This document shows positions 6,886 through 9,037 of a stretch of DNA of 20,605 nucleotides, piece after piece. How positions within the stretch are numbered: the first letter of the stretch is position 1; each line of letters begins with the position of its first letter. Under the pieces are notes generated by a model. It was given only the letters and a program-made list of their open reading frames with translations, was not told where the DNA came from and searched no databases. A program made the position numbers and the translations under genes. The DNA is from a virus (lineage: Duplodnaviria; Heunggongvirae; Uroviricota; Caudoviricetes), in IMG/VR virus record IMGVR_UViG_2740892209_000013, one strand, 5' to 3'.

Positions 6886-7018
6886 TTTTTGGGACTCCTG
6901 GCTGATTAAGTATGTCGATAAGGCGTTTCCATCCGTCACGTAATTTACGGGTGATTCGTTCAAGTAAAGATTCGGAAGGGCAGCCAGTAACAGGCCACCC
7001 TGCAATGGCATATTGCAT
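6854..7018 (-). CDS. cIII: CIII, inhibitor of FtsH-mediated CII degradation
   Basis: Own translation, below ORF-track cutoff: [54 protein letters not shown] (54 aa), near-identical to lambda CIII. Confidence 0.85.
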   Translation of the reverse strand: MQYAIAGWPVTGCPSESLLERITRKLRDGWKRLIDILNQPGVPKNGSNNYGYPD

Positions 7019-7090
7019 GGTGTGCTCCTTATTTATACATAACGAAAAACGCCTCGAGTGAAGCGTAATTGGTATGCGGTAACGCCGCGC

Positions 7091-7477: not shown

Positions 7478-7505
7478 ATAAAAAATCGCCCTCATCTTGG
7501 AGGGC
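7478..7505 (-). terminator. Intrinsic terminator-like hairpin (GCCCTC-n6-GAGGGC then TTTTTTAT on the minus strand) upstream of ea10 in the pL operon
   Basis: Stem-loop plus T-tract read on the minus strand; same element present in recalled lambda sequence. Confidence 0.4.
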
Positions 7506-7647
7506 AAAGAAGATTTCCAATAATCAGAACAAGTCGGCTCCTGTTTAGTTACGAGCGACATTGCTCCGTGTATTCACTCGTTGGAATGAATACACAGCGC
7601 TGTGTTTATTCTGTTGTTTGCGTGAAAATGAAATCCGCCTGAGCGGG

Positions 7648-8517
7648 TTATGACCACTTTTTGTTTGGGTTTCGTTGGTGAGCGTGGTTTACAGGATTAT
7701 TTGATATACCCCATAACTCTGACTCGCTTATCTCTACACGAGAGAAAGACCTGCTTTCTTTCAGTTCTTTTATAAACCTAGAACCTAAGATGACATCTAT
7801 TGTACCAGAAAGTTCTTGTAAAAGATCTTTGTTTTTTCTGAGGAAGAAAATATCTTCTTTATATTTAATTTTTACATAGAATTTATTCTGTATTTTTAAT
7901 ATATCAAAGCATGGCAGATATCTATATCCCTCATATTTTCGCCACTGCTTAACAATTATAACATCTTTTTCATTTACTGCATTAATCAGCCCAAGACAAA
8001 GTACAGGTATGAATATTCTATTGTCTGCCGAAAGCGTACAATTATCACCACCAGGCAAATATGTATAAATCATGTCGGAATTTTTATACGCATCAACGAA
8101 TGCACGTAAGAAGCGTACATATTTTTGCCATCCGTTTATACCGAATTTACCATATAAGTATTCTTTATTTGTTAGAAGAAAACTATTTGTATCAGGATCC
8201 TTATCTACAGACCTGTCGATAAGATCTCCAACTACGTTTACAAAGTCAAAGACAGAGTTTAATAAGAACAATTGTCTTTCAGTAGGGCGAATTTCAATTA
8301 TGTAGCCAGGATGAAGACGATATTGCATCTGCTTACGAAGTATACCGAACGCTTGGGTCCGAGCATCTGAAAGCAACTTCTTGTCGCCATCGCCGTGAGC
8401 ATTGTTTCTAATAAAACTGATATAATTTGCTAATTTTTCAGCCTCTTTTTTGTGTTTTTTTCGCTCTGATGCTGAGTCTATTGGTTTTGGTATGGACTTG
8501 TAATCAATCTTCTTCAT
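7648..8517 (-). CDS. Hypothetical 289-aa soluble protein, non-lambda cargo in the ral/sieB slot immediately downstream of N; no recognisable family
   Basis: 293-aa ORF (8529) or 289 aa from the second ATG at 8517, which has a GAGGT Shine-Dalgarno 6 nt upstream; first ATG overlaps the ancestral N stop (ATGA); very AT-rich relative to flanks; lambda homology breaks at about 7620 and 8530. Confidence 0.7.
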   Translation of the reverse strand: MKKIDYKSIPKPIDSASERKKHKKEAEKLANYISFIRNNAHGDGDKKLLSDARTQAFGILRKQMQYRLHPGYIIEIRPTERQLFLLNSVFDFVNVVGDLIDRSVDKDPDTNSFLLTNKEYLYGKFGINGWQKYVRFLRAFVDAYKNSDMIYTYLPGGDNCTLSADNRIFIPVLCLGLINAVNEKDVIIVKQWRKYEGYRYLPCFDILKIQNKFYVKIKYKEDIFFLRKNKDLLQELSGTIDVILGSRFIKELKESRSFSRVEISESELWGISNNPVNHAHQRNPNKKWS

Positions 8518-8525
8518 TACGTACC

Positions 8526-8849
8526 TCATGCCAATGGAATGGATTCCCCTTTAACCTTTTGTCTTCCTTGACAAGTTATACCGAACTCACCTGGCTTGCT
8601 ATACCAAACTCGATGATTCTTGCGCTCAATACGTTACAGGTTGCTTTCAATCTGTTCGTGGTATTCAGCCAGCACCGTAAGGTCTATCGGATTCAGTGCG
8701 CTTTCTACTCGTGATTTCGGTTTGCGATTCAGCGAGAGAATAGGGCGGTTAACTGGTTTAGCGCTTACCCCAACCAACAGGGGATTTGCTGCTTTCCATT
8801 GAGCCTGTTTCTCTGCGCGACGTTCGCGGCGGCGTGTTTGTGCATCCAT
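8526..8849 (-). pseudogene. N: Antiterminator N with in-frame ochre stop (TAA at 8634-8636, codon 72; lambda has CAA Gln); translated product would be 71 aa
   Basis: MDAQTRRRERRAEKQAQWKAANPLLVGVSAKPVNRPILSLNRKPKSRVESALNPIDLTVLAEYHEQIESNL then stop; the same frame continues RIERKNHRVWYSKPGEFGITCQGRQKVKGESIPLA, recognisably the N C-terminal region, to a TGA at 8526-8528. Confidence 0.8.
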
Positions 8850-9006
8850 CTGGATTCTCCTGTCAGTTAGCTTTGGTTGTGTGTGGGAGTCGTAGTCCTG
8901 AACGAAAACACCCCGCAATGGCACATTGGCAGCTAATCCGGATTCGCACTTCCGGCCAATGCTTCGTTTCGTATCACACACACCAAAGCCTTCTGCTTTG
9001 AATGCT

Positions 9007-9037
9007 GCCCTTCTTCAGGGCTTAATTTTTAAGAGCC
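9007..9037 (-). promoter_or_regulatory. nutL: nutL (boxA-like GGCTCTTAAAAATTAA and boxB hairpin GCCCTGAAGAAGGGC)
   Basis: boxB is identical to recalled lambda nutL boxB; boxA has one mismatch; lies between pL and N. Confidence 0.75.

What the first reader, a model, noticed from the sequence alone, without database searches (positions are those of the whole stretch)
7648..8529. AT-rich 289-aa orphan gene directly after N, replacing ral/sieB
Lambda homology runs up to about 7620 (ea10 side) and resumes at about 8530 (N side). The lambda ral/orf28/sieB segment between them is replaced by one 870-bp gene for a soluble 289-aa protein that I cannot place in any family. It is much more AT-rich than the flanks, sits in the same orientation as the pL operon, and its first ATG overlaps the ancestral N stop codon (ATGA). 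In lambda this slot carries anti-restriction (ral) and superinfection exclusion (sieB), so the same kind of function is the inference here. This is a hypothesis from position and composition only.
Basis: partly seen in the sequence, partly recalled or inferred. Interest (0 to 1): 0.78.

Follow-up and report, generated by a model that had tools for sequence, protein, structure and literature searches.

The report
TnpB-like protein carrying Nun's arrest tail
The "orphan" gene after N in phage 434 encodes a nuclease-less TnpB/Cas12-type nucleic-acid-recognition domain joined to the 14-residue peptide that phage HK022 Nun uses to jam RNA polymerase, so it is probably a new kind of transcription-arrest (phage-exclusion) factor, not a gene with no relatives.

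Summary
Window 7648-8517 (-) is an AT-rich 289-aa gene that replaces lambda ral/orf28/sieB. The window is phage 434 (99.94% to OL657226), where the gene is CPT_434_48, annotated "Nun C-terminal peptide-containing protein".

It is not unplaceable:
- **Tail.** The last 14 residues (VNHAHQRNPNKKWS) equal HK022 Nun 96-109, the part that enters the RNA polymerase cleft. The tail is the most conserved segment among homologues only 36-68% identical overall. 70% of its changed codons are synonymous, so it is under selection, not a recombination scar.
- **Position.** In an HK022-like phage the gene sits exactly in the nun slot.
- **Distant relatives.** These carry a different conserved tail (GGLPSLGKRR). 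Several lie between brxC and pglX in BREX operons or in other defence or mobile-element contexts.

Best reading: a Nun-type transcription-arrest/exclusion factor whose RNA-binding head has been replaced by a TnpB-derived module. The function is inferred and untested. The target, the timing of expression and any guide RNA are unknown.

The parts
7648..8517 (-). CDS of the 289-aa protein (phage 434 CPT_434_48, 'Nun C-terminal peptide-containing protein'); stop TAA at 7650-7648
   Evidence: ORF list; GenBank annotation of OL657226; homologues align from this start
8522..8525 (-). GAGG ribosome-binding site, 6 nt before the ATG at 8517
   Evidence: Sequence read; an RBS is annotated over this GAGG in OL657226 (L001 5124-5128 = window 8523-8527)
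8308..8517 (-). aa 1-70: strongly basic N-terminal helical hairpin (H16-38, H43-65). Net charge is +6 to +12 across the family. It is specific to the Nun-tailed subfamily
   Evidence: AF2 model, pLDDT 83-96 over residues 11-70; charge count; most distant relatives lack an N-terminal extension and the rest carry an unrelated one
7843..8307 (-). aa 71-225: TnpB/Cas12-like REC lobe. Strand beta1 (71-77) is followed by a REC helical insertion (80-145) and then the WED beta-barrel (152-219). No RuvC or TNB domain follows
7720..7842 (-). aa 226-266: helices plus the conserved motif ESRSFSRVEISES (aa 253-265). The motif is shared with the distant GGLPSLGKRR-tailed relatives (S.SYSRVDF)
   Evidence: Alignments A1/A2; AF2
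7693..7719 (-). aa 267-275: variable, disordered linker (22% pairwise identity in the family)
7651..7692 (-). aa 276-289: VNHAHQRNPNKKWS, identical to HK022 Nun residues 96-109 (the RNA-polymerase arrest peptide)
   Evidence: PHROG 5632 hit; comparison with the nun genes of L002 and L055; selection analysis; role of these Nun residues from PMC5386594
7581..7692 (-). Segment nearly identical to the HK022 nun 3' end and its downstream flank: 3 synonymous mismatches in the 42 tail nucleotides and 3 mismatches in the 67 nt after the stop. It includes a weak hairpin, CCCGCTCAGGCGGA at 7647-7634, followed by a T-rich run
   Evidence: Side-by-side 3' ends
7486..7507 (-). Intrinsic terminator of the early-left transcript, downstream of the gene. 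It lies in the part homologous to lambda
   Evidence: Terminator scan; terminator feature in OL657226
8526..8849 (-). N antiterminator gene directly upstream. Its full-length stop overlaps the first ATG of the ORF. In this window it is interrupted by TAA at 8636-8634 (Q72*)
9006..9022 (-). nutL boxB hairpin. pL transcription starts at about 9071, so the gene is the second cistron of the pL transcript, before the first annotated terminator
   Evidence: OL657226 features mapped to the window (offset 3399); hairpin also seen

Best explanation
The gene encodes a three-part accessory protein of phage 434.
- **aa 1-70:** a basic helical hairpin.
- **aa 71-225:** a TnpB/Cas12-type REC lobe (WED OB-barrel with inserted REC helices) that has lost the whole RuvC/TNB nuclease lobe.
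- **C-terminus:** a flexible end whose last 14 residues are the RNA-polymerase arrest peptide of HK022 Nun.

The most likely mechanism is a Nun-type elongation-arrest factor. The folded head binds a nucleic-acid feature of particular transcription complexes, either nascent RNA or DNA at the upstream fork. This replaces the boxB-binding arginine-rich motif of Nun. The disordered tail then threads between the beta' lid and rudder, next to the RNA:DNA hybrid, and blocks translocation. The biological use is exclusion of competing phages or mobile elements. 434's own N-modified complexes are presumably immune, because lambda N occupies the same cavity.

**Shown here:** the domain architecture, the identity of the tail and selection on it, the fold, and the genomic slot.
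**Inferred:** RNAP binding and arrest by this protein, the ligand of the head, the target phages, and self-immunity.
For: **Tail**
- The last 14 aa are identical to Nun 96-109.
- Nun 87-109 is the only part seen inside the elongation complex. It holds all known arrest determinants. A Nun lacking the last 13 residues neither binds RNAP nor arrests (PMC5386594).

**Selection on the tail**
- In seven long-family genes the tail has 83% pairwise aa identity. The core has 50% and the adjacent linker 22%.
- 70% of changed tail codons are synonymous.
- Invariant positions are N97, H98, H100, R102, K106, K107 and W108. Variable positions include N103, whose N103A mutant is wild-type in vitro.

**Fold**
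- AF2 model: pLDDT 81 overall, core above 88, tail disordered.
- Foldseek against PDB and BFVD agrees.
- hhalign against 65 TnpB REC lobes gives collinear hits at beta1-alpha1 and at the LPKLG strand region, scoring 24.9 and 22.3. Sixty column shuffles gave 13.0 +/- 2.1, maximum 18.0.

**Genomic slot**
- In L003 an HK022-like cI/pL region (72.6% identity over 1 kb) is followed by the long gene where HK022 has nun.
- Long and short (Nun-like) genes share the tail codons and the downstream hairpin or terminator, lineage by lineage.

**Context of remote relatives**
- Between brxC and pglX in three BREX clusters; beside DISARM-like and RelA/SpoT genes; near an ApeA HEPN gene.

**Basis for self-immunity**
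Against: - There is no experiment on this protein.
- The tail lacks Nun H93 and R94. R94A strongly weakens RNAP binding, so the 14 residues alone may bind poorly.
- 434 uses lambda-type N and nut, so the target cannot be lambda nut as it is for Nun. The real target is unknown.
- No sigma-70 promoter was found between N and the gene. Expression may therefore come only from pL, during lytic growth or after induction, which fits prophage-mediated exclusion less well.
- The wider family carries a different tail (GGLPSLGKRR) of unknown function. The ancestral activity of the head therefore does not require the Nun peptide.
- The PADLOC defence models do not hit it.
Confidence: 0.5

Rival explanations
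1. Lytic-phase host (or competitor) transcription shut-off. The protein is made from pL together with N and arrests any unmodified RNA polymerase. N-modified phage complexes are protected. The N-plus-tail-protein pair then works as a poison and shield during 434 growth, not as a prophage exclusion function.
For: - The gene is the second pL cistron, before the first annotated terminator. No separate promoter was found.
- An N gene sits immediately upstream, at or within a few bases of the start, in 434, L005, L132, L079, L096 and L123, with different N arginine-rich motifs.
- Lambda N occupies the cavity along the hybrid.
- The tail lacks the Nun residues 87-95 and has no recognisable boxB-binding motif.
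Against: - L003/L071 phages carry the gene without any N, in the slot of the prophage-expressed exclusion gene nun.
- The folded, conserved head suggests specific targeting rather than general arrest.
- The gene is absent from lambda, and lambda imm434 carries lambda ral/sieB in this slot instead, so the gene lies outside the imm434 substitution.
Confidence: 0.15
2. The head does the work. The TnpB-like REC lobe is a DNA- or RNA-binding regulator or defence sensor. The C-terminal peptide is not an RNAP plug here. It could serve as a protease, degradation or partner-binding tag, as the unrelated GGLPSLGKRR tail may do in relatives.
For: - The core 73-225 is conserved across a family whose other members have a different conserved tail.
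- Nun itself is cleaved in vivo to remove its last 13 residues.
- The upstream motif S.S(F/Y)SRV(D/E) is shared by both tail types.
Against: - The conserved tail positions are exactly those that contact RNAP and nucleic acid in the Nun complex. The tolerated changes fall on non-contact positions.
- The tail and its flank are exchanged with bona fide nun genes.
Confidence: 0.15
3. Positional analogue of lambda ral/sieB: an anti-restriction protein, or an abortive-infection toxin unrelated to transcription.
For: Same slot between N and ea10; AT-rich, moron-like composition.
Against: - No similarity to Ral or SieB, and no hit to any Pfam, NCBIfam or PADLOC model.
- No membrane segment, nuclease, NTPase or HEPN domain appears in the model.
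- The only recognisable functional element is the Nun peptide.
Confidence: 0.08
4. RNA-guided arrest. Like its TnpB ancestors, the head binds a guide RNA (or uses nascent RNA) to recognise a complementary DNA target, and delivers the Nun peptide to polymerases arriving there.
For: - The fold derives from the RNA-guided TnpB/Cas12 family. Its WED/REC lobe normally holds the TAM duplex and the start of the guide-target heteroduplex.
- TnpB has repeatedly given rise to nuclease-dead transcription factors (abstract listed).
Against: - In TnpB much of the omega-RNA scaffold is held by RuvC (stems 2 and 3a, and the pseudoknot shared with WED), and RuvC is absent here.
- The BREX-embedded relatives have only about 20-35 nt of intergenic space on either side.
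- No Rfam family and no conserved non-coding block is specific to the long genes.
- Each lambdoid copy is followed within about 30 nt by a hairpin or terminator that it shares with short nun genes.
Confidence: 0.07
5. Recombination scar. The Nun codons are a leftover of a cassette exchange in a shared linker and happen to be in frame, with no function.
For: The tail and flank are a mosaic joint shared with HK022. Lambdoid module boundaries often lie at gene ends (general knowledge).
Against: - Every long-family member found by whole-protein homology, down to 36% identity, keeps the tail in frame.
- The tail is the most conserved segment and shows mostly synonymous change.
Confidence: 0.03

Closest known systems
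HK022 Nun transcription arrest / exclusion factor (UniProt P18683; PHROG 5632)
   Same: - The C-terminal 14 residues are identical, including H98, H100, R102, K106, K107 and W108.
- The DNA of the tail and 67 nt of 3' flank is nearly identical.
- The operon position is the same (first or second pL cistron), and the gene occupies the nun slot in an HK022-like phage.
   Different: - 289 aa against 109 aa.
- No homology to Nun residues 1-95, and no recognisable boxB-binding arginine-rich motif.
- A folded TnpB-like domain replaces an intrinsically disordered body.
- Nun H93 and R94 are missing.
- In 434 it coexists with a lambda-type N, so lambda nut cannot be the target.
TnpB / Cas12f / Cas12n RNA-guided nucleases (REC lobe = WED + REC domains)
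   Same: - Same topology: beta1, then a helical REC insertion, then the WED beta-barrel.
- Collinear profile matches at the 'RLYP..Q...L...FG' and 'LPKLG' motifs.
   Different: - No RuvC, TNB or C-terminal domain: the protein ends about 60 residues after WED.
- No Pfam OrfB hits.
- Not in an IS200/IS605 element.
- No evidence of an omega-RNA.
TldR, TnpB-like nuclease-dead repressors
   Same: TnpB-derived proteins recruited to control transcription, some prophage-encoded (own knowledge plus the abstract).
   Different: TldRs keep an inactivated RuvC fold and a guide RNA, and block promoters. Here the nuclease lobe is gone altogether and the effector is an RNAP-inserting peptide.
Lambda Ral, Orf28 and SieB (the genes in this slot in lambda)
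   Same: Same location between N and ea10; accessory, AT-rich cargo.
   Different: No sequence or fold relationship. No evidence for restriction alleviation or SieB-type abortive exclusion.
Uncharacterised betaproteobacterial relatives ending in GGLPSLGKRR (P0010-P0035)
   Same: Shared core (434 residues about 73-225) and the S.S(Y/F)SRV(D/E) motif before the tail. They are found in defence or mobile-element contexts, including between brxC and pglX.
   Different: A different conserved C-terminal peptide. Most lack an N-terminal extension and the rest carry an unrelated one. They are not in lambdoid pL operons.

Membership tests
HK022 Nun family | C-terminal RNAP arrest peptide (Nun 96-109, with H98, H100, R102, K106/K107, W108) | tested here: met
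   The last 14 aa are identical. The named residues are invariant across the long family.
HK022 Nun family | N-terminal arginine-rich motif that binds nut boxB RNA | tested here: not met
   The Nun-like PHROG matches only residues 274-293. The N-terminus is basic (+9) but shows no alignable ARM, and the aromatic equivalent of N W18 is not conserved.
HK022 Nun family | Small (about 90-120 aa), largely unstructured protein | tested here: not met
   289 aa with a confidently folded 215-residue body.
HK022 Nun family | Arrests transcription on a heterologous phage and excludes it | not testable with these tools
   Needs in vitro elongation assays and plating tests.
TnpB/Cas12 (OMEGA / type V effectors) | WED + REC recognition lobe | tested here: met
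TnpB/Cas12 (OMEGA / type V effectors) | RuvC nuclease domain with the D-E-D triad, and the TNB zinc finger | tested here: not met
   Only about 60 residues follow WED, as helices and a disordered tail. None of 28 family members hits PF01385 or PF07282.
TnpB/Cas12 (OMEGA / type V effectors) | Adjacent guide (omega) RNA and IS200/IS605 context | tested here: inconclusive
   No Rfam hit. There is no spare intergenic DNA in the BREX copies. The 3' flank is shared with nun genes. An RNA embedded in coding sequence is not excluded.
TldR (nuclease-dead TnpB repressors) | Retained but inactivated RuvC fold plus a guide RNA | tested here: not met
   No RuvC fold is present.
Lambda Ral / SieB | Sequence membership in the Ral or SieB families | tested here: not met
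   No Pfam, NCBIfam or PHROG hit other than PHROG 12139 and the Nun tail.
PHROG 12139 (unknown function) | Full-length profile match | tested here: met
   E=1.2e-204 over residues 5-293 of the 293-aa ORF, covering 289 of 289 profile positions.
Known anti-phage defence systems (PADLOC-DB 2.0) | Match to any catalogued defence protein model | tested here: not met
   No hits for the 434 protein or for ten relatives.

The most novel reading that the evidence does not exclude
The head keeps the ancestral TnpB ability to read nucleic-acid sequence, through a TAM-like DNA motif, a bound guide RNA, or the R-loop-like upstream fork of the transcription bubble. The protein would then be a natural, sequence-programmed 'roadblock with a plug': a TnpB-derived module that delivers a polymerase-jamming peptide to chosen transcription units. 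The GGLPSLGKRR tail of the BREX-embedded relatives would be a second such effector peptide.
Probability: 0.1. Interest if true: 0.92.

Novelty: new variant of a known kind. Interest (0 to 1): 0.72.

Why it matters
Nun has been treated as a one-off curiosity of HK022. This gene shows that its arrest peptide is a portable module. Lambdoid phages attach it to at least two unrelated heads: short arginine-rich RNA binders and a roughly 260-residue TnpB-derived domain.

It also adds a new exaptation of TnpB, a free-standing REC lobe with no nuclease lobe. That lobe links a classical laboratory phage to uncharacterised genes inside BREX operons.

The host phage (434), the polymerase mutants that resist Nun, and the in vitro arrest assay all exist already. 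The hypothesis is therefore directly testable, and it could reveal how transcription arrest is targeted without nut RNA.

Tried and rejected
- **Family libraries.** Pfam, NCBIfam and PADLOC gave nothing for the 434 protein. Pfam gave nothing for all 28 family members and PADLOC nothing for ten relatives.
- **PDB sequence search.** An HMM search of PDB sequences with the family profile gave only a chance peptide hit.
- **First AlphaFold run.** With 4 sequences it was unusable (pLDDT 44). It became usable only after distant relatives were added.
- **Fold libraries.** The afdb50 library was not available.
- **Profile against one TnpB.** hhalign of the profile against a single TnpB sequence was weak (P 0.033). 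A 65-sequence TnpB profile with shuffle controls was needed.
- **Promoter scan.** No promoter was found between N and the gene, so expression in lysogens remains open.
- **Rfam.** Only the cIII thermometer was found in the window. Nothing relevant was found in four related loci.
- **Literature.** Searches for this gene, for Nun-like proteins, and for a gene between brxC and pglX found nothing on it. The 434 genome announcement does not discuss the gene.
- **Genome scan.** The scan with the whole distant family failed for lack of a conserved block. A narrower alignment returned only six loci.
- **Arginine-rich motif.** An alignment of the N-terminal helix to lambda N (ERKKHKKEAEKLANY against TRRRERRAEKQAQW) was considered. 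It was dropped because it needs an indel and the aromatic position is not conserved in homologues.
- **RuvC relic.** The idea that 'GTIDVILG' (aa 238-245) is a relic of RuvC motif I was noted, but it rests on a low-confidence region.

Full report
**What the window is.** Window 3400-12900 matches Escherichia phage 434 (OL657226.1) over 9501 bases with six mismatches. The region reads int/xis side ... exo-bet-gam-kil-cIII-ea10 | target gene | N | nutL-pL-oL | hex-cI(434) | cro-cII-O-P-ren.

The finding corresponds to CPT_434_48 (UMO75312.1). The depositors named it "Nun C-terminal peptide-containing protein". The genome announcement does not discuss it. I found no open-access paper on it or on Nun-like proteins beyond HK022.

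**Checking the observation.** The ORF, its strand, its low GC (0.30-0.35 against 0.45-0.52) and the borders of lambda homology (up to 7619, resuming at about 8530) are as described. Lambda carries ral/orf28/sieB in between.

Two details need correcting.
- The 289-aa protein starts at the ATG at 8517, with GAGG 6 nt upstream. The ATG that overlaps the N stop (ATGA, 8529-8526) would give 293 aa.
- Relative to HK022 the mosaic joint lies inside the gene. From the codon for V276 through 67 nt past the stop (7692-7581), 434 is almost identical to the 3' end and flank of HK022 nun.

**The tail.**
- The last 14 residues, VNHAHQRNPNKKWS, equal Nun 96-109.
- In the cryo-EM structure of Nun on an elongation complex only residues 87-109 are ordered. 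[quoted passage not shown]
- H98, H100, R102, K106/K107 and W108 make the key contacts. N103A is wild-type. A Nun lacking the last 13 residues does not bind polymerase (PMC5386594).

Whole-protein searches found only a handful of homologues with the same architecture, 36-68% identical. All of them keep the tail.

A codon-level comparison of seven such genes gives these pairwise amino-acid identities:

| Segment | aa identity |
|---|---|
| N-terminus | 38% |
| Core | 50% |
| Linker (267-275) | 22% |
| Tail | 83% |

In the tail, 70% of changed codons are synonymous. The invariant positions are the Nun contact residues, and the variable ones include N103. The tail is therefore maintained by selection on the peptide, not left over from recombination.

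**Two heads for one tail.** A degenerate DNA scan for the tail in viral contigs returned 120 loci of two kinds.
- Short Nun-like proteins of 80-125 aa with diverse arginine-rich N-termini.
- The roughly 290-aa family, including diverged members.

The two kinds share tail variants and the downstream hairpin or terminator, lineage by lineage. For example, long L096 matches short L034, and 434 matches HK022.

**The body.**
- With 28 sequences AlphaFold gave pLDDT 81, with the core above 88 and the last 30 residues disordered.
- Foldseek against PDB and against viral models gives the same family at weaker E-values.
- The topology is beta1 (71-77), then a helical insertion (80-145), then a beta-barrel (152-219). 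This matches the TnpB REC lobe, where REC (13-116) is inserted between beta1 and beta2 of the WED OB-barrel (1-12 and 117-176). That lobe binds the TAM duplex and the start of the heteroduplex (PMC10097598).
- Profile-profile alignment to 65 TnpB REC lobes gives three collinear local matches. Two score well: beta1-alpha1 at 24.9 and the LPKLG strand region at 22.3. Sixty column-shuffled controls gave 13.0 +/- 2.1, maximum 18.0.
- Nothing resembling RuvC or the TNB zinc finger follows, and no family member hits the OrfB Pfam models.
- The first 70 residues form a confident helical hairpin. It carries most of the protein's positive charge.

**Genomic setting.**
- In 434, L005, L132, L079, L096 and L123 the gene directly follows an N gene, with differing N arginine-rich motifs, at or within a few bases of the N stop.
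- In L003/L071 there is no N. An HK022-like cI/pL region (72.6% identity over 1 kb) is followed by the long gene where HK022 has nun. The long gene and nun therefore behave as alternative alleles of one slot.
- In 434 the gene lies upstream of the first annotated pL terminator. No promoter of its own was detected.

**Wider family.**
- An exhaustive profile search found about 20 remote relatives (17-26% identity). They share residues about 73-225 and the motif S.S(Y/F)SRV(D/E).
- They end in a different conserved peptide...G..V.GGLPSLGKRR.
- Three clusters lie between brxC and pglX of BREX operons.
- One lies beside NYN, RelA/SpoT and DISARM-like genes.
- Genomic copies occur in Dechloromonas, Burkholderia, Paraburkholderia and Neisseria. 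One is on an element with TrfA, ParB and a serine recombinase. Another has an ApeA HEPN gene about 1.7 kb downstream.
- None of these is in PADLOC.
- The function of the alternative tail is unexplained.

**Interpretation.** The best-supported reading is a Nun-type arrest factor with a new head.
- The disordered residues 260-289 are long enough to reach the site that Nun 87-109 occupies. This would leave the folded head at the upstream DNA / RNA-exit side of the polymerase. Those are the nucleic acids a REC lobe or a basic hairpin could read.
[quoted passage not shown] This gives a plausible basis for self-immunity of N-modified 434 transcription, and for the recurrent N-gene pairing.
- These steps are inferences. 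Polymerase binding, the target and the timing of expression are untested.
- The absence of Nun H93/R94 (binding residues) and the pL-only expression signal are real weaknesses.

**Rivals.** They are weighed in the rival-explanations section. The scar idea is the only one the data argue strongly against.

**Novelty and score.** The Nun tail was already noted in the GenBank record. I found no description of the TnpB-like REC lobe, of selection on the tail, of allelism with nun, or of the link to BREX-embedded relatives in the literature available here. I rate it a new variant of a known kind (a Nun-type arrest/exclusion factor with a TnpB-derived head), with interest 0.72.

Noticed in passing
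window 8634-8636 (- strand codon 72 of N): N carries CAA->TAA (Q72*) relative to phage 434 OL657226. This truncates N to 71 aa and removes its polymerase-binding C-terminus. The phage in this window would be N-defective, and translation running up to the target gene's start is lost.
   Followed up: partly
window 9110: A T->G difference from OL657226 falls inside the annotated oL2 CI-binding site (L001 5707-5720). Other differences are at 6988 (cIII / thermometer RNA), 12253 (P) and 12686 (ren). Together with the N nonsense this suggests a mutant or diverged 434 stock or prophage.
   Followed up: no
window 7998: A single difference inside the target gene changes Gly174 to Cys. The column is variable (G/S/N) in homologues, so the change is probably tolerated.
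   Followed up: partly
window 6973-7031 (-): Rfam Lambda_thermo (cIII thermoregulator) is present at 81.9 bits. One of the SNPs (6988) lies within it.
   Followed up: no
L036, L039, L050, L051, L091 (viral contigs): 88-aa proteins combine a lambda-N-like arginine-rich N-terminus (MDAQARRREKRKEKQEEW...) with the Nun tail. They look like natural N/Nun chimeras, apparently aimed at lambda-type boxB.
   Followed up: no
L029 3257-3292 and 3556-3591: Two Nun-tail-bearing genes sit in tandem in one prophage.
   Followed up: no
L035, L058, L063, L102; L044 10904-11044; L143 7959-8090: Decayed copies occur. Several prophages have the long gene broken near its 5' end. L044 retains only a 46-codon 3' fragment. 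L143 retains a 43-codon fragment of a GGLPSLGKRR-tailed relative.
   Followed up: no
P0010-P0035; L138 8856-9530: Remote relatives end in a strictly conserved ...V.GGLPSLGKRR peptide of unknown function. In L138 the next gene (224 aa, no Pfam hit) ends in a similar ...VSGSYGSGKRR. The genome scan matched 97 stretches to its two search patterns (the tail and a core motif), and only 6 were relatives of the query, so the tail may also be portable.
   Followed up: partly
L129/L130, L133/L134, L135: BREX-like operons (BrxB-BrxC-X-PglX) carry this family between brxC and pglX. In L129/L130 and L133/L134, where the contig extends past pglX, two unannotated genes, an Hsp70-like gene and a second MmeI-type methyltransferase follow.
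   Followed up: no
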